Of a DNA stretch of 22,589 bases, positions 13,905 through 22,589 are shown one piece after another (the first letter of the stretch is position 1; every line of letters begins with the position of its first letter). The stretch spans positions 806,001 through 828,589 of the forward strand of contig NW_019028993.1 in NCBI RefSeq assembly GCF_002105155.1, written 5' to 3'. The DNA is from Lobosporangium transversale (lineage: Eukaryota). Made by a program: the position numbers and the translations under genes. Below the pieces are notes generated by a model, which was not told the origin of the DNA, did not search any database, and was given only the letters and a program-made list of their open reading frames with translations.

Positions 13905-14778
13905 GATGAACACTCTGTGAGAAATAGAGGATTAAATAATAGAGTGAATGCGATTAGGCGGTTGGAGAAGTGGCTGTGTGGGTTGCGTCGATGTAGTTTG
14001 TCGTGAGGAAAGGAATGGAATGGAATGAATATATGCCGTGAGAGAAGAAATAAAGTAGATTGATTAGATGAATGGGATGGAATGCAAATAAATGAAAATG
14101 AATGATGATTGAATCAGTCTATGGTGTCGAGTGGATGGAAACACAGAGGAGTGAAGGAAAGAAAAGAAAAGAAAAGAAAAGAAAAGGAAAGGAAAGGAAA
14201 GGAAAAGGAAAAGGAAAAGGAAAAGGTAATGGGAAAAAAGGATGTTAAGCAAAGTGAAGATTAGATATTTATATATCTTATGCTATACATGTTTAGTTAT
14301 AAAAATATTCATCAATGTGGACCAACAAGAGACCAGCAAATGGACTAAAATGATGGAGGGATGACTATGGCGTTCTTCTTCTTTAGCTTTGAGGCGCTGC
14401 TGGTCCCACATGTTTAAACTCGGCTGAGCAACATTAAAAAGCAGACGGGACTATTTTTAACTCCTCCATTCAAACATGTCTTTATATACTTTTACTTGTT
14501 GTTATTCTTACATGTATGTATATATATATATACATGGACATGTTGTAGGGAAAAAGATCTTCGAATTTGTTCCTTTTCTTTTCCTCTGTTCTTCTAGACA
14601 TGTCCAAAAAAGAAACGCCCAAAAGACTCTCTTTCTTACTCATCATCAAAGGGTCGGTTCTTTGTGTCAAAGGATTATTTTTACTTGTAAAACAAGGAAG
14701 ATCCTTTGCCCGATCCTAGATATAGAAATGAACTGATATGCTGATTATACCGATTGACTGATTGTACTGATATGATGT

Positions 14779-14806
14779 GGCACGGGCACGGGCACGGGCA
14801 CGGGCA
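14779..14806. repeat. (GGCACG)n hexanucleotide microsatellite, ~4.7 copies
   Basis: ggcacgggcacgggcacgggcacgggca, located near the left edge of the CRN island. Confidence 0.85.
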
Positions 14807-15022
14807 TTATCCTCGATCCCCGTCATCATGACTATTTTTTTTTTTTTTTTTTTGAACCAGATTTCGTGTAGCATCAGCATCATTACTCTATACACGCCCA
14901 TTGCCTGTTCTTCAAAGGTTTCTCATGCCCCCTATTTTGTCTCCTGAACATGTTATTCTATCTTGTTCCTTGTTTATATTCTATATTCCAACTTGCAACC
15001 AGCCCATCAACATCAGCTGGAC

Positions 15023-15088
15023 ACATGTCGTTGGCGACTGTTCAGACTCCATATGATACTGTATAAACACCTGAACACTGCCACATGT
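15023..15088. repeat. Divergent palindromic element (candidate site E4)
   Basis: acatgt-cgt-tggcgactgttcag ... ctgaacactgccacatgt forms an imperfect inverted repeat. Its left part ggcgactgttcagactc matches ggcgacttttcaaattc of E1/E3 at 14 of 17 positions. Confidence 0.45.
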
Positions 15089-15601
15089 CATTGACTACTC
15101 TACGTTCCCTTAAACAATATTCTTAGGATACATCTGAACTTTTGCAAGGGATGTATTGATGCTTCGACAAACATGTAGCAATTAATGGCTATATCACAGC
15201 CCTTGGATTGTGGAAGCGCTGAAATTATGCGGAAAACGGGAACCATTTGTGTTTTTACTAGCAACAAGCGTGCTTTCAAAAAGTTTGCTCCAAAGAACAG
15301 ATCCTATATCCTTCATTGCTCAAAAGTAACAATCTTGTCTTTTCTGCACCCTAAAAGCGCCCCATAGTCCCATTGAGGCGTTCAGAGGCATTATTTGCCT
15401 CATGGCTTGAGGATTAGCAGACTTTCAGTCAAGTTTTATTGGTTTGAACATCCTGTCCATTCGAAGTTGTCTCTCTGGATGGCAGCACCTATTCAGGGCT
15501 AATCAATTCCGCTAGATACGATTAAATCAAGGGGGATTTGGAAAACCAACAGGCATCGAACAATCGCCTTAGCAAGTGAGTGAGGACCTTCTCTGTGGCG
15601 C

Positions 15602-15668
15602 GCACGGACCATGGGGGCGACTTTTCAAATTCTTTTATAGAGATGAAATCCAAAGTCGCCCCAGTTAA
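15602..15668. repeat. Palindromic cassette-boundary element E3 (GGGGCGACTTT-N27-AAAGTCGCCCC)
   Basis: Arms at 15614-15624 and 15652-15662. 15614-15668 is identical to 21170-21224, and the flank gcacggaccatgg is also similar. It lies ~95 nt past the stop codon of the module ending at 15762. Confidence 0.92.
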
Positions 15669-15761
15669 TATTTTAGCGTGTTATTAAATTTCTATGACAA
15701 GCCTTTTTATAGGATTAAGAACTATATATATTATGTATTACTGTATACTGTGACGAAAATT

Positions 15762-17165
15762 CTAAGTTGGGATATTTTTAAAAAGTTTCTCTTTGAGCTC
15801 GTCGAAGCTGACATGAAGAAGATCTTTGTAATCCTTGATTAATCCAGTGTGGTTTGCTGCACCAGGGGAACCACGCATGTAAACTATTTTAAATCCAGTT
15901 ACTGGCTCTCCATCCTTTTTGACAACAAAATGCCCATCGTCAATTATGGCGGAATGATTACCTCCAAATACTTCGTCCAAATAGCTTTCAATCTGATTTC
16001 TGCCGTCGGGACCTCTCTTATCAAAAGCGTTCTGGATTTGCTTAATTTGTTTCTTCTCGTGTTCTTGGAAATTACTTATGGACACCTGGATAAACATTGT
16101 GTCGAGTATGAAATCAAAGCGAGGATAAGTCGAATGACAATGGCTCAGTACATGTCCATAGCCACGTCCAAGAGAAGTCATGCCTTGATGGATTGTCCCA
16201 TGATCCTTAAAGTCCACTATAATCTCCGTTGGATTCACGCCGATAAGGTTTGTTGCTTTGAGAACGATTGGCTTGGTTAAAGTCAAAAGCCGGACTAGCA
16301 GTGCCAACTCGAAATCATCTCCACTCATCTCTCCAAGAATAACTCCCCTCAGGATATGCTCATGATGAGGCATATTTGTAAACGCCTGAAAGAGTGCTTT
16401 CTGCGCTGGGAGGCACAAGACATAGTTTATGGCTCCGCGGTTCTTGTTGAGACGATAAATAAGCCCTAGGTCACGGAAATCCCATTCAAAATCACTACTC
16501 TGCGAGTTGTTGCCAAGGAAGACTGTTGCAAGGCTTTTAGCGAACTTCTTCTTCGATTCATCGCTGCAAGATCTGTAGTACGTCCAAACTACAGTGTGAA
16601 ACTCGCCTGTTCTCTCAGTTACATACGAATCAATGCTATTTCTTGTGAGTGGTCTTTCCTCAATTGACCGGATGAGGAACATAAACTCTCGTGGCACACG
16701 GTTTGTAATCCTCATTATATCCTGGACAATATCGGGTTGGTTCAGGTGGACCTCCAACCATTTTGAAAACACTGTCTCGGATAGTGGGCCAACAAAGTAC
16801 AATAAGGTATTTCGAAGACTGCCTGGCATAATCTCCAATTCATATTTGGCATGGGCTGTTCCTGTAAATATCGCTCTAGATCCTTTGGATTCAGCTTCCC
16901 ATCGAGTGAGATCCTTTAGATGGTTCAAGAACAGGTATTTATCTGGCACGTACGGCTCTTTTTGGAATAACTTTCCATGTTCGTCGATAATGAATAGTGT
17001 TTTGCGCTCCTTCTGTTTGAATAGGTCGAATAATGCGCGACCAGCCGCAATTGAGCAATCTATAACTTCAGAAGCGTCGAGGAGACTTTCCAGATCAGAT
17101 GCCGTCAAGATATCCCTGTTGAGAGCGAAGAAGATCCTTAACAGTGCCTTTGCCGATTTTATTTC
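15762..17165 (-). pseudogene. CRN C-terminal module C: 5'-truncated P-loop NTPase plus REase-like domain (uninterrupted ~467-aa frame, no Walker A, no own start or header)
   Basis: EIKSAKALLRIFFALNRDILTASDLE...LFIIDEHGKLF (Walker B)...FTGTAHAKYE...TNRVPRE...GDDFE...YPRFDFILDTMFIQVSISNF...HVSFDELKEKLF. Clearly paralogous to module A. Confidence 0.8.
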
Positions 17166-18403
17166 CTAGAGCTTGACGAGTAATTGGTTGGAATATCGGT
17201 TCAATTTTACTATAACAGTTCTTCAAAGTCTCCAAGAATTGTTCTTTGCGATCCTCCTCATAATCCTTTAGTCGTTGCTTAATCCCATTAGCCGCGAGCT
17301 CAATGCCTTCAATGTCGTCGCCAAAAAAAAATATTGAATTCCCGTGGCACACATCCGGTGGCTTTTTGAATCTCGCCTCGTAGCTCATTCAATTGTTGGC
17401 GGGCTGTTGGGTGGACCTTATTTATGATCACATCCAGTAGCTTATTGAAAATATCAGGCGACAGTGGACCAACATACTCGACATAGTGTGGTGCGTCTCT
17501 GAGAATGAGCTTTGCAAATCTTACCGTACTGCTAAACACTACTCTCGCATTATTTGAATTGTTCCAAGAGTTGAAAGTCTTTAGAGGCCATAAAACTGGG
17601 AACCTGTCGGGCGCAGACTTACTATTTTTCTGGAAATAATGCACCATGCTCATCCACGACAAATAATGCCTTCTGACTTCTTGACTGGAGTAGGTCACCC
17701 AAGATACTGCTGGCGCTACTCACAAAAAGATTTTCCGATGTTTCAATTTCGACCATTTCCTCGAGCTCTGAGGCTGTCAAAGTATCTTTGTTGTTGGATA
17801 AGAAGAGTTGACAGATCAGTCGTGATGCGTCAGTATTAGTGTCACAATTGTTAAGTTGATTAGCATCCGCAATATAAAGCACTGGCCAACCATGTGCATA
17901 TGCCTTGGCCGCAAGGAACCATGAAATGTATGATTTGCCGACGCCCATTGGACCGTAAACATTTCTTGACAGACGACTCACTGTTCTCGAGTTCATTCCA
18001 TAGCTTCATCATCTATTCAGACATAAAAAAACTCGCGACCTTGATAGCCTCTCGCAAAGAATATTGGGTTCTGACCAAGATCCATTGAAGTAATTCGATT
18101 CCCAGCCTGCACCATCAAAAGCGATTGGAACTCGGCGCGAGGTTCTGGTGCACACTTGTTATTTTCGCTCAAATTCAGTATATGTTGGGGTAAAACTACG
18201 AGTTCGCCATCGACTGCAATATATCGCTTCAAGGAACGACAGCGCTTCGTAAGGTGCTCTTTGAGCATATAAGAATAGCGAGACTGACGTGAGTATGGAA
18301 TAAATAAATTTTCTCAAGAATCATCAAAACTATGAATGGAATAAACTCACTTTCTAAATCTTCGTCTTCTGTGTCTTCTAGGCTCCTTTGGGACTTCTTG
18401 GGG
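17166..18403 (-). pseudogene. CRN C-terminal module B: decayed and 3'-truncated NTPase module with its own acceptor and micro-exon
   Basis: Micro-exon 18403-18351 (tag|...|gtgagt), main exon from ~18258. Homology to module A runs across ORFs 18017-18268, 17622-17996, 17309-17698 and 17095-17388 (GPMGVGKS, FVVDEHG, VGPLS, TGCVPRE), with several frameshifts and a TAG at 18015-18013 where Gln is expected. Confidence 0.8.
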
Positions 18404-18550
18404 CTATTTAAAATCCACGCAATAAACTAACAAGAGGATAGTTAGATAGGAGGCTTTGATAAAAGTACTTGTATGCGATAGAGCAGTGGGGAGCCGAAAT
18501 AAGCTCAAGCAAAAAGCCTCGCGAGAGGACAGTGGAGAGTCAGAGTATAC

Positions 18551-18593
18551 GCACGCACCATGGAGGCGACTTTACAAATTCTTTTTACAGATC
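18551..18593. repeat. Half-site E2a of the boundary element
   Basis: gcacgcaccatggaggcgactttacaaattctttttacagat aligns with the left half of E1/E3 (gcacggaccatgggggcgacttttcaaattcttttatagagat). It precedes module B in transcript orientation. Confidence 0.85.
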
Positions 18594-18705
18594 AAACTGT
18601 GCATTTAACAATTAAGCACCATTTACCACTATGCCTACTACCGCCCTCTGAATAATTCTCTACAAATAGCAAGACTGGATATTTTTGGCTATTCTAGAAT
18701 GATTT

Positions 18706-18750
18706 GGGCGATCTAAAAGTCCCATAAATATAAACAGATCTAAAGTCGTC
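18706..18750. repeat. Degenerate site E2b carrying the right arm of the boundary element
   Basis: gggcgatct...agatctaaagtcgtc versus gggcgactt...aaatccaaagtcgcc in E1, with similar overall length. It lies ~140 nt past the module A stop. Confidence 0.55.
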
Positions 18751-18891
18751 AAGCCGCATCTGCGTATTTATCTCAATCTGGTCTCTCATCTCATCTACAA
18801 CCCGACGCGGCACCCTTTGATAGGATGACGCTTAAAGTTAGAAGATGAATGGAGTAGAAGCTTCCTTTATTGATAACACTATCCAACACTA

Positions 18892-20920
18892 TCAAACAAT
18901 GTTTGCAAAGAATAGGCTTTTGAGGTCGTTGAAGCTTACATGTTCTACATCTGGCAACTCTGTAACGAGCTGGCGGTGATTCCCTAGGTTAATATCTCTA
19001 CCACAAATGTAGACGATTCGGAATCCAGGAAACAACTTCATCAATACCTGTTGTCGGGTCTTTTTTTGGTGACAATAAATCCATCCTTTCCAAAATCAGC
19101 TCTATGCTTTCCACCATACATTTCATCCAAGTAACACTCAATCTGATTCCTATCATTATACACCACTTTGGGTGTCTTGTACGGTCGCTTAAATGCTTTC
19201 CTTAAATCACTTGAATCTCTGTTATGCACTCCAAACTCGCTGACAGACACCTGGATGAATATTGGTCCAACCATAAAGTCAAATCGAGGATATCCTGGAT
19301 AGCCACGGGCCAAGAATTTATCTTTTCCCGGGCCAAGAGAATGTCGTTGCCTGCTTATAACTCGGTAGTCATCGAAGTCCAACACGATCGAGCCCTTAGG
19401 ATCACCAACGAGGTTCGTTGTAGGGAGCACTATTGGCCTAATACTAGTGCAAATAAATGCATGAAAAATTGCTTGCTCAAATTCATTTCCACTGAACCTA
19501 TTAGCCTTGAGCCGATTCTTTAGATCTTCTGGCATTCCCATTGTCTTGAACTGATCCAAAAGTGCTCTGAAGGCTGTATTGCATAAAGGGCGGAATAAAA
19601 TTACTCCATCTCTCCTTAGACGGAACAAAAGACCCAGATCTATGAAATCCCACTTGAACTCTCCTTCGACAGAACCATGTAAGAACGCCGAGGCAAGGCC
19701 ATTATAAAAATTTGTACGGGTCGTCTCGGATTTTTCGATGCTTTTGTAGTAGTTCTGGATGTTGTGAGAAAAATCCAACCTTCGGCAGTCTTCAAACTTC
19801 TCGAATGCCTCCTTAATGGGTAACTCTGGATTCTCTTCAATATAGGTTGACAAGTTCATCAGCTCTCGTGGTACAAGGTTCGTGATACTCCGTATATCCT
19901 CGTAGTCCGTGGATTGGAGATTGGGAGTATGCTTCAACAGATTCTTGAAAGCGTCATCCAACAAAGGTCCCACGAATACCACTGTTTTAAAGTCCTCCTT
20001 AAAGCTCGATTCCATGATCTCCAATTCGAATTTTGCATGCGCTGTGCCAGTGAGAATCAAACGAGATCCAGCCAAGTCTTCAGTCCAACTGGAAAGGTCC
20101 ATCAGAGGTTTTAAAGATTTAAATTTTTCTGGTACTGGTTTGTCGAATCTGAAGAGTTTCCCATGTTCGTCAATAATAGTTAGAGTCTTCCGTTCCTTCT
20201 GCATGAGCATGTTAAAAACGCGTATGATAGCAGTATTCCATATGCCACCTTGAACACCATAGCCGGATACAAGCGTCTCCAGTTCGGCAGCAGTTAAAAC
20301 ATCCTTGTTCATCACAAGGAAACGCTCGATCACTTCCATATATGAGTCCGCTTTCTCACTAGTATCCAAAGTACCCGCATCTGATATGTAGAGGGTAAGC
20401 CATCCTTCAGCATATGCTCTTGCTGTCAAAAAATAGGAGAGAAAGCTCTTGCCAATACCCATTGGACCAGACAAGACTCGTCTGTATACGCACCTTTGTT
20501 CTTCTTCCATCTCGTTCCAAAGCTCCAGCATTTGGTGCGTGACGAGAATTTCAGAGACTCTATAACCCTTTGGGACTTGACCCAGGGATGGTATATCGAC
20601 CCAACTACCAGCCTTCAGATCGTCTTTGAGATGTTCAAACTCATTACGTGGTTTTGGAAGGTATCTAGAATCCTCTAGCATTGCGATCCAAGAGGGTGGT
20701 AACGTGACCATTTTGCCATCAGAAGCCCTGTATTCTCTCCACCCTTCCTCAATGCGATCTTCTTTGAAGGTGAAATATACTGTGGATCTAATTATGATAT
20801 CGTACACATACACAGTTGGTTAGTACCATAACATAAGCAGTCATCAAGTCAATCTATTAAACAGCAAAAAACAAATTATTACCTTCGTCCATTTTTCTCT
20901 TGAGAATCTGTTCCGATGCT
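18892..20920 (-). CDS. CRN C-terminal module A: P-loop NTPase plus REase-like domain, adjacent to the header exon; nearly intact, with frameshifts at both ends
   Basis: Micro-exon 20920-20883, main exon from 20787. Walker A SGPMGIGKS, Walker B IIDEHGKLF, TGTAHAKFE, TNLVPREL, GNEFE, YPRFDFMVGPIFIQVSVSEF. After a frameshift near 19030-19067 the homologous tail PGFRIVYICG...HVSFNDLKSLFFANIV* ends at 18892. Confidence 0.8.
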
Positions 20921-21155
20921 CTAGAAAGATAAGAGAGCGCGCAATGGCAGAAATGTTAGCATTTTGATCAGATCAAAGAATATATTGCTGTCAATGAGAT
21001 ATGAACGCCAGCTAATGGAGAGTCAGAGCATGTGTGCGAAACGCGAAACAGATTCAATCAGAAAAACTAACAAATGCATCAATGTAAAAGGTCAAATAAA
21101 AATAAAAATAAAAATGAAAACTGTGTTCTCAGACAACAGTGAGAGTCTGAGATGT

Positions 21156-21224
21156 GCACGGAGCATGGAGGGGCGACTTTTCAAATTCTTTTATAGAGAT
21201 GAAATCCAAAGTCGCCCCAGTTAA
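21156..21224. repeat. Palindromic cassette-boundary element E1, inside the first intron of the CRN gene
   Basis: Arms at 21170-21180 and 21208-21218. It sits between the header donor (21346) and the module A acceptor (20921). Confidence 0.92.
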
Positions 21225-21346
21225 ATAGTGTTGCCGAGATTCATCTCAACAACATAAAAAAGGGATAGATACACGTGACCGTGATGAGATAGCTTCATCA
21301 ATTGAACAATTGAAATATCATCAGTCCATCAAGAGCTAATACATAC

Positions 21347-21781
21347 CTCGCTGCGGTGGCTTGACAAAAACATGGATCGTTTTCCTTGGAAGTTCAGAAT
21401 TAAATATCTCCCAAAGCTCCATTGACGCGACTGAAGAGCCTCTTTTGACTCGATTTCTGACTCAACGACGATCTTGCCTTTGTCAGGGATGGAAACTTTA
21501 TAGAGGGTGAGGTCCTTGGGCTTAACGCTTGGATCCACAGTAATATTGGGATAGATTGCTTGCTTGAGTTCATCGACAGAACTATTGGAAAGAATCTTTA
21601 CAGAAAAACATGAAGCTTCTCCATCAACAATACAATAAATCTGTAGGCTGGTTGGTTCGAGGATTTCAGGGTCATTGGTGCTTGAAGACTCTTCCTTCGC
21701 TTCCCCTTTTCTTTCTTCTTTCCTTTCATACGGTTTAGTTCGAGGTGATAGGCATCGTGGTGATGTTCTGTCGCTTCCCAT
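21347..21781 (-). CDS. Crinkler (CRN) effector N-terminal ubiquitin-like header exon
   Basis: LQIYCIVDGEASCFSVKILSNSSVDELKQAI...DLTLYKV (LFLAK-equivalent). In a shifted frame from ~21435 it reads VASMELWEIFNSELPRKTIHVFVKPPQR (HVLVxxP motif), followed directly by the donor gtatgt at 21346. Confidence 0.88.
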
Positions 21782-22589
21782 TGTGATTTCAAAAACAAGG
21801 CGTAAATGGACGGAGGACAGAAAATAGGGAAAGGTTGATAAAAATGCTAAAGGATGATAATTCAGTAGCAGGATGGTTCAAAATTGTCTAGAGATGAAGT
21901 TGAGGGAGGAAAAGAAAAAAAGAAAAAAAGAAAAAAAAAAAGGAAAGGAAAGGAAAGGAAAGGCAATGAATGAAGGCTTGGAATAAATAAAAGAGCAAAA
22001 TTGATGGGAGCAAAACTGGGGGAAATAAGAAAAAAGTGAAAAGAGGATAAAGGAAGAAAAGGAAGAGGAGAGTGCAAAAATGAAGTGAAGCAAGTTAAAG
22101 AAAGGAGCGACAATTGATAAATCTGTTCCTTTATTTCAAGGTTGGGCTATGCTGTGTGTGTGTGAGAAATTTTTTTTTTCTTGTTGCACAAGACGCCATG
22201 CGATTAAAGATTGAATTGGCCCCCAAGTGTGACGTAACATGTATCATTTAAATACACAAACACTATTCATTCTCTTTAACTCTCTTGTTTTAACCACACA
22301 ATCGAAAGTATGCACACATTCACCCTACATTCATCCCACTATGTACAAGTCAAATACTCCCTCATTCCAAGAACAAGAAGCTGTTACTGATATTGTAAGT
22401 GTTCAAACGCGAATAATAATTTTTTTGTATCAGTGCTTTCTTGGTGATATCTAAGCAAAATTATGCTTTAGAGAAAACCCTTGACGCGTCAAACTTTAGG
22501 AAGGATGGGGAGAATGACAGCAAAGAAAGAAAAGATGGCAATGAAGAAAAAGAGGAGGATGATCAAGTAGATATCCCAGCAATTATATT

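What the first reader, a model, noticed from the sequence alone, without database searches (positions are those of the whole stretch)
15023..21781. Integron-like CRN effector cassette array: one header exon, several header-less toxin modules separated by conserved palindromic sites
Seen in the sequence, in transcript (-) order: CRN header exon and donor; site E1; acceptor, micro-exon, module A, stop; sites E2b/E2a; acceptor, micro-exon, module B fused to module C, stop; site E3; a decayed ~0.5-kb segment; possible site E4. Only one header is present, and cassette B has no recognisable start or header of its own but begins with a splice acceptor. Established: CRN/CR effectors diversify by exchanging C-terminal domains after the HVLVxxP motif. 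Inference: recombination between the intronic sites would place any module behind the single header, and splicing would remove the scar. This would be a eukaryotic analogue of integrons or bacterial polymorphic-toxin orphan cassettes. I know of no description of such a dedicated site, but I cannot search the literature.
Basis: partly seen in the sequence, partly recalled or inferred. Interest (0 to 1): 0.93.

Follow-up and report, generated by a model that had tools for sequence, protein, structure and literature searches.

The report
Hairpin-bounded Crinkler cassettes in fungal repeat
In a soil fungus, a repeated DNA unit carries one Crinkler front exon followed by stacked predicted-nuclease modules separated by copies of one 45-base hairpin site, which is likely the end of a mobile element that would stack and swap modules behind the front exon; the modules stored behind the first one here are broken, and active shuffling is untested.

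Summary
The anatomy is real, but it is not yet a working integron. The window is Lobosporangium transversale. E1 (CRN intron 1) and E3 (after the last module) share an identical 45-bp hairpin. E2a is a half-site; E2b is at background level. The '0.5-kb decayed segment' is a high-copy non-coding tail, and single-copy DNA starts at the outer arm of E4 (one run). Three further contigs keep E behind a header donor while the intron between has diverged. Genome-wide, CRN headers and modules swap at intron 1, and the micro-exon travels with the module. Against live shuffling: A, B and C are paralogues of one NTPase-REase family. B is dead and fused to truncated C without a site. The A-to-B junction is the same in about 7-8 copies and in a second assembly. 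One crossover lies in coding sequence, no recombinase is in the window, and four CRN loci of other fungi lack E. Best reading: a mobile composite element whose terminal hairpin marks where modules were stacked, probably moved by a rolling-circle (Helitron-type) enzyme acting in trans. No description was found in ten literature searches.

The parts
21782..22589 (-). Multi-copy upstream region (promoter/5' UTR inferred); the far end of the repeat is not in the window
   Evidence: Summed contig depth far above the flank in 3 of 3 DNA runs; no Pfam match at E<0.1
21347..21781 (-). CRN header exon ending in the HVFVKPP (HVLVxxP-type) motif, phase-1 GT donor; one frame break near 21434 in the window
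   Evidence: PF20147; 100% to P0127/P0128 residues 1-116; RNA joint
21170..21218 (-). Site E1 in intron 1: 11-bp inverted arms, 27-bp spacer, 130 nt after the donor
20883..20920 (-). Micro-exon of cassette A (A/C type), preceded by branch point and acceptor
18892..20787 (-). Module A: STAND/CDC6-like NTPase plus predicted restriction-endonuclease-like domain; about 7 near-identical copies
18706..18750 (-). E2b, degenerate candidate site 142 nt after the stop of A (not above background)
18565..18597 (-). E2a, right half of site E, 160 nt before the B acceptor
18351..18403 (-). Micro-exon of header-less cassette B (type shared with B/F/G modules)
17167..18258 (-). Module B: pseudogene, 3'-truncated NTPase paralogue; a stretch spanning one of its breaks is identical in about 8 copies (run X1)
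15762..17165 (-). Module C: 5'-truncated NTPase-REase paralogue fused to B without a site
15614..15662 (-). Site E3, core identical to E1, 102 nt after the stop of C
15083..15613 (.). High-copy non-coding tail
15032..15082 (-). E4: diverged same-orientation site whose outer arm lies at the boundary to single-copy DNA (inferred terminus)
   Evidence: X1 single-copy contig ends at 15061, which places the start of shared sequence at 15032

Best explanation
The locus is one copy of a repeated Crinkler unit of Lobosporangium transversale in which one header exon and a non-coding tail frame several predicted NTPase-nuclease modules, and the 45-bp hairpin E at the junctions is likely the terminal signal of a mobile element, probably moved by a rolling-circle (Helitron-type) enzyme encoded elsewhere. 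Shown: the sites, their places in intron 1 and between modules, the multi-copy state, splicing of header to micro-exon to module, and header/module mosaics that switch at intron 1. Inferred: repeated insertion at or beside an existing E stacks modules as E-module-E-module-E-tail. Because E1 lies in a phase-1 intron and each module brings its own acceptor, any module that lands next to a header is spliced in frame. Modules pushed further back lose the header and decay, as B/C did. This is evolutionary-time reshuffling by a selfish element; regulated switching is not shown. Odds: E is a functional end or junction of a mobile element, about 0.55; the enzyme is Helitron-type given that, about 0.5.
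For: Identical E1/E3 cores in unrelated surroundings, same orientation, one at each junction except B/C. The repeat boundary falls at the outer arm of E4, not in the middle of the site as an att crossover would give (X1 contig 14239-15061, depth 116.9; the depth jump is seen in 3 of 3 DNA runs). Header and tail bins have similar summed depth (54-63 times the flank in X2 and X3; 83-135 in X1). Three contigs (joints 15635/21339 in X1 and X3, 15656/21342 in X1-X3, 15636/21319 in X7) hold a header donor and E with an unalignable intron between. Among 10 Lobosporangium CRN models: P0122/P0143 share 90% of the last 30 header residues but 37% of the module; P0122/P0127 share 47% of the header but 95% of the module; P0126/P0128 54% and 98%; P0143/P0161 48% with 86% in the micro-exon. 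Module A lies at 6 or more places in one assembly. One Lobosporangium CRN model runs into a Helitron Rep remnant (PF14214, E 1.1e-17). Fungal Helitron2 elements have terminal hairpins and short duplicated 5' termini from self-insertion (PMC5148889, sections 6 and 16). Tail-to-head CRN copies near helitrons are reported in P. infestans (PMC5289972, section 11).
Against: No transposase or recombinase in the window, and the genome could not be searched. The other end of the unit lies outside the window. The boundary at E4 rests on one contig of one run. The Helitron link is one gene model and may be a chance neighbour. The FoHeli spacing of the 3' inverted repeat (20-51 bp from the end) is not matched at E3. 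Header swaps at the HVLVxxP end occur in Phytophthora (PMC3726527 passages), and the same exon layout occurs without E in 4 of 4 metagenome CRN loci, so E is not needed for swapping. The A versus C-type switch lies in coding sequence. The A-E2-B order does not vary. Summed depths are rough, and the runs may include the sample behind the window.
Confidence: 0.45

Rival explanations
1. E is a passive relic: an old transposon end caught in intron 1 of an ancestral CRN. Segmental duplication, gene conversion and ordinary homologous recombination across shared header, E, micro-exon and tail sequence made the arrays and mosaics.
For: A and C-type modules share the micro-exon and about 52 residues and switch in coding sequence. 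The A-E2-B/C block is amplified as one unit. Neighbouring accessions ORZ18369-72 and ORZ18376 point to a local CRN cluster. Duplication and fragment recombination explain Phytophthora CRNs (PMC3726527 passages).
Against: It does not explain why the same 67 bp stands both in intron 1 and after modules, why E survives where the intron around it has diverged, or why the repeat ends at an E-like arm.
Confidence: 0.28
2. Integron- or shufflon-like system: a tyrosine or serine recombinase excises and re-integrates E-bounded cassettes so that different modules are brought behind one header, possibly within the life of a colony.
For: Directly repeated sites around header-less, acceptor-led cassettes. 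An X7 contig joins an intact E right half to a B-type intron (joint 18561/21170, depth 99.8, only 23 nt on the short side). All 4 intact or near-intact B-type models in one cluster lack a header. Crypton-type recombinases exist in related fungi (PMC13465315, abstract and passages; Mortierellaceae not mentioned).
Against: A 27-bp spacer is long for a tyrosine-recombinase core (6-8 bp, recalled). E2 is decayed, B/C is dead, the order is invariant, cargo in the window is one family, and the repeat boundary lies outside the E4 arm. The X7 joint is equally explained by a paralogue and was not listed for the DNA runs (5 joints were not shown).
Confidence: 0.14
3. The CRN NTPase-REase is itself the transposase (TnsC/TnsA-like) and E is its recognition end, so the unit is a self-mobilising CR element.
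For: The model of A matches STAND/CDC6 NTPases including TnsC (Z 11.2, rmsd 5.2, 271 aligned). The C-terminal domain retrieves mainly restriction-type nucleases (best Z 5.4, rmsd 4.4, 120 aligned). A transposon link of this domain pair is summarised in PMC5289972. It is the only enzyme type in the unit.
Against: mS29/DAP3 and archaeal ATPases score higher than TnsC. Close homologues in other fungi lack E. No binding data.
Confidence: 0.08
4. No DNA rearrangement is needed: E is an RNA hairpin that governs alternative splicing of one header to several terminal exons.
For: Each cassette has a branch point and acceptor; E folds strongly as a single strand.
Against: No header-to-B joint among the joints shown (5 not shown). 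E3 and E4 have no downstream exon, B is dead, and DNA-level mosaics exist.
Confidence: 0.05

Closest known systems
CRN/CR effectors with Ubl header plus NTPase-REase (Zhang et al. 2016, seen only through the review PMC5289972); header/C-terminus recombination in Phytophthora (PMC3726527)
   Same: Header ending in an HVLVxxP-type motif, NTPase plus REase-like module, header/module mosaics, many pseudogenes
   Different: The exchange point coincides with an intron that carries a conserved hairpin, and header-less modules are stacked behind one header between copies of that hairpin; the passages read describe no such site
Helitron2 / FoHeli elements (PMC5148889) and helitron-associated tail-to-head CRN copies of P. 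infestans (through PMC5289972)
   Same: Hairpin at the inferred terminus, short internal duplicates of the terminal hairpin, cargo genes, a Rep remnant beside another CRN in this species
   Different: Hairpin is much longer (45-50 bp), no RepHel in the unit, second terminus not seen, FoHeli spacing not matched
Bacterial integrons and polymorphic-toxin orphan modules (recalled; search listing only)
   Same: Promoter-less cassettes between directly repeated hairpin sites; only the first is joined to the expression and delivery part
   Different: No integrase, no attC core motif, in-frame joining is by splicing, stored modules are dead, reordering not shown
Cryptons / Glomhoppers (PMC13465315)
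   Same: Fungal mobile DNA that could supply a tyrosine recombinase in trans
   Different: Cryptons are bounded by 4-6 bp direct repeats and encode the recombinase; neither is shown here

Membership tests
CRN/CR protein (header + NTPase-REase) | Crinkler N-terminal domain ending in an HVLVxxP-type motif | tested here: met
   PF20147 E 8.5e-13, 49.4 bits, cut-off 24.6; motif HVFVKPP
CRN/CR protein (header + NTPase-REase) | STAND/CDC6-like P-loop NTPase | tested here: met
   Model pLDDT 83.5; NLR, archaeal ATPase, CDC6 and TnsC matches
CRN/CR protein (header + NTPase-REase) | C-terminal restriction-endonuclease fold with acidic and Gln catalytic positions | tested here: inconclusive
   Most of the 50 rows are restriction-type nucleases but best Z is 5.4; conserved E, D, Q and S positions in 58 sequences; no Pfam match
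CRN/CR protein (header + NTPase-REase) | Delivery into a target cell and toxicity | not testable with these tools
   No assay; 'toxin' is inferred from the family
Integron | Tyrosine integrase beside the array | tested here: not met
   None among the window's long ORFs and flank genes; genome not held
Integron | Promoter-less cassettes between directly repeated hairpin sites | tested here: met
   E1, E2a, E3 in one orientation around acceptor-led cassettes; absent at the B/C joint
Integron | attC core (RYYYAAC ... GTTRRRY; motif recalled) | tested here: not met
   By eye, the site sequences do not carry it
Integron | Excision, circles or reordering of cassettes | tested here: inconclusive
   A-to-B order invariant; one X7 joint fits a deletion or a paralogue; contigs drop rare forms
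Helitron2 | Hairpin and short inverted repeat at the 5' terminus | tested here: inconclusive
   E4 hairpin (z -1.9 and -1.2) starts at the inferred boundary (one run)
Helitron2 | 3' inverted repeat 20-50 bp from a T-rich 3' terminus | not testable with these tools
   Far end lies outside the window; an AT-rich run 7 nt beyond E3 resembles the FoHeli end but the spacing differs and E1 lacks it
Helitron2 | RepHel protein in an autonomous partner with the same termini | tested here: inconclusive
   Rep remnant in one other CRN model; its DNA could not be read
Helitron2 | Insertion without target-site duplication at a T-rich site | not testable with these tools
   Only one flank is visible
MITE (E alone as a 49-bp element) | Target-site duplication and unrelated flanks | tested here: not met
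   No duplication around E1 or E3, and homology continues beyond both arms
Crypton | Tyrosine recombinase ORF within the element | tested here: not met
   None in the part of the unit inside the window
Crypton | 4-6 bp direct repeats at both ends | not testable with these tools
   Second end not in the window

The most novel reading that the evidence does not exclude
A eukaryotic integron: a dedicated enzyme recognises the intronic hairpin E and excises, circularises and re-inserts header-less nuclease cassettes behind dozens of Crinkler headers, with splicing erasing the scar, so that a free-living fungus actively rotates its toxin arsenal.
Probability: 0.17. Interest if true: 0.93.

Novelty: new variant of a known kind. 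Interest (0 to 1): 0.68.

Why it matters
CRN domain swapping after the HVLVxxP motif is long known, but its DNA-level mechanism is open; helitron mediation is a hypothesis in the review read. Here a defined 45-bp site marks the swap point and the end of a large repeat family in a culturable saprotroph with public assemblies, so the question becomes directly testable: list all E sites, find the second terminus and empty sites, and look for circles. Even in the modest reading it links effector-domain shuffling to a specific mobile-DNA signal and shows an intron used as a frame-preserving landing pad.

Tried and rejected
Whole genome not held, so no genome-wide count of E. Site pattern in viral contigs: 12 stretches, 0 of 12 with CRN or window similarity. 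Right-half pattern in prokaryote genomes: 3 stretches, 0 of 3 with the full palindrome or a CRN. CRN alignment against viral contigs (0 of 104 candidates) and prokaryote genomes (0 of 40) found nothing; metagenomes gave 4 of 83, none with E. No RNA holder was on record; X7 is RNA by guess, and its depths and contig ends are not used as evidence of level or transcript end. No loose-end view of the flanks at E3/E4 was obtained. The tail as a decayed exon was rejected: no Pfam, Rfam or tblastn match, and its one candidate acceptor AG is not shared by the laid contigs. Assembly artefact was rejected: contigs of 3 DNA runs span A's end through E2 into the B intron, and a second assembly has A beside the B/C fusion. 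Prokaryotic promoter scan uninformative. Solved-structure sequence search gave only mS29/DAP3. The protein atlas did not complete. Four look-ups of earlier findings were empty. Zhang et al. 2016 was not held; its supplements and those of the other papers were not seen and may list Mortierellaceae loci.
Full report
Source. Module A matches a Lobosporangium transversale protein at 100% over 93% of the query, and the other 119 listed hits are mostly from Mortierellaceae and related fungi where a name is given. The left part of the window holds ordinary genes: DHHC palmitoyltransferase, Dsc3, a ubiquitin-conjugating enzyme and a glyoxal oxidase.

The sites. Similarity runs over 67 bp at 96%, the arms are 11 bp and perfect, and both fold as hairpins better than all 200 shuffles. 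Scoring the core along both strands gives E1 and E3 90, E2a 47, E2b 36 and E4 34, against unrelated best scores of 35-36. So E2a is a real half-site and E2b is unproven. E4 matches the outer 18 nt at 14 positions, which 18 of 200 shuffles also achieved, so sequence alone does not establish it. Its position does: the single-copy contig of run X1 ends at 15061, which for 31-letter words puts the start of shared sequence at 15032, one base outside the E4 arm, and depth rises more than 50-fold in the next bin in all three DNA runs. The exact base rests on one contig.

The genes. The header is a Crinkler domain, identical over 116 residues to two annotated proteins. Both A and B are preceded by branch point, acceptor, micro-exon and a second intron. 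The probable RNA run shows the joints 21347/20918, 20883/20787 and 18352/18259. A folds as a STAND/CDC6-type NTPase. The C-terminal domain retrieves mostly restriction-type nucleases at low Z. A, B and C are paralogues (A/C 39-45%). B has several frame changes and a stop, and is cut off and joined to a C that lacks its start. A stretch spanning one B break is held without difference by an X1 contig at about 8 times flank depth, so that damage is real, whereas the breaks at the end of A are in none of the four runs.

The unit is a repeat. Long, difference-free contigs of A stand at 6.7-7.4 times the flank, the A-end/E2 contig at 7.4-8.1 and the B-intron contig at 6.5-8.3; thus essentially every A is followed by E2 and B. 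Module A is annotated at six or more places in one assembly. A second assembly has A and the B/C fusion as neighbours on one 5046-bp contig. Header and tail bins have summed depths of roughly 54-63 times the flank in two runs and 83-135 in the third. The tool warns that such sums are not copy numbers, so I read them only as 'tens of copies, similar for both ends'. The tail codes for nothing recognisable.

E elsewhere in the genome. Three contigs carry a header donor and E with intron sequence between them that does not align at 90%: two at single-copy depth in DNA runs (one in X1 and X3, one in X1-X3) and one in X7. One X7 contig joins an intact right half of E to a B-type intron, on 23 nt. 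In other fungi, 4 of 4 metagenome CRN loci keep the two-intron layout as far as their contigs reach, and none has E (best core score 27-33); the three first introns that could be read whole are about 80-125 nt by eye, against about 430 nt here. E is therefore lineage-limited and not required for the gene layout.

Header/module exchange. Of the Lobosporangium models fetched, 10 with a recognisable header end were compared (P0152 was dropped as a partial model). Similar headers lead to unrelated modules and unrelated headers to near-identical modules. In the pairs listed above the switch falls at the end of the header exon and the micro-exon follows the module. Unnamed representatives add further headers in front of the A/C-type micro-exon. 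One exception matters: A and C-type modules are alike for about 52 residues past the header and then diverge, which is a coding-sequence crossover. These are gene models, not DNA breakpoints.

Mechanism. A site repeated in one orientation at each junction, with a diverged copy at the very end of the repeat, is what repeated insertion of a mobile element at its own terminus leaves. An att-type crossover would put the boundary inside the site. Fungal Helitron2 elements have terminal hairpins and short duplicated 5' termini ascribed to self-insertion (PMC5148889: passages, sections 6 and 16). A Lobosporangium CRN model continues into a Helitron Rep remnant, and helitron-linked tail-to-head CRN copies are reported for P. 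infestans (PMC5289972: passages, section 11). I therefore favour a rolling-circle enzyme in trans, without having tested it. Passive homology-driven exchange, a site-specific recombinase, self-mobilisation by the NTPase-REase and alternative splicing remain as rivals, with the odds given.

Literature. Ten full-text searches showed no paper, by listing, on a dedicated intronic site or cassette arrays in CRN genes. One search had no hit; none of the 20 listed of 606 papers contained 'crinkler'. Also seen: PMC3726527 and PMC6131194 (passages), PMC13465315 (abstract, passages), PMC12957317 (abstract: a Crinkler-like gene spread by adjacent hAT elements in fish). Zhang 2016 and Haas 2009 were not read and are cited through the review; the library lacks most subscription papers, and no supplements were read.

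Verdict. Observation partly confirmed, interpretation partly supported. This is a new variant of known CRN shuffling with a previously unremarked DNA signal; interest 0.68. The integron reading stays open at about 0.17.

Noticed in passing
protein P0130 (ORY96028): A CRN header closely related to two others leads into an unrelated RHSP-like NTPase module and then a Helitron Rep remnant in one gene model.
   Followed up: partly
window 15022-15039 and 15082-15099: An 18-nt direct repeat (83%, 60 bp apart) brackets E4; the outer copy lies partly in single-copy DNA. Target preference or an old duplication.
   Followed up: no
window, just beyond the right arms of E1, E2a, E3 and E4: CATG follows the arm within 1-5 nt in four of five sites, including the single-copy flank of E4.
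   Followed up: no
window 18565-18750: The outer arms of E2b and E2a form an 8-nt perfect inverted pair 166 nt apart, and a 10-nt direct repeat lies in their centres, as if a short piece had been inserted into one site.
   Followed up: partly
window 18890-21790: Several one-base frame breaks are absent from all or part of the read contigs, so gene models from this assembly may overstate pseudogenes.
   Followed up: partly
L014:1-2350: A Mortierellaceae-like CRN locus with a header and module start on one strand abutting a start-less module on the other strand: an inversion or a chimeric contig.
   Followed up: no
L001-L003, L005, L008-L011: Eight GC-rich viral contigs share a related inverted-repeat element that matches the E arm pattern but has a different spacer and no CRN.
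   Followed up: no
accessions ORZ18369-ORZ18372, ORZ18376, ORZ18432: Near-consecutive accessions suggest a cluster of header-bearing and header-less CRN models, most of them on an 829-kb contig: a good place to look for a longer array.
   Followed up: no
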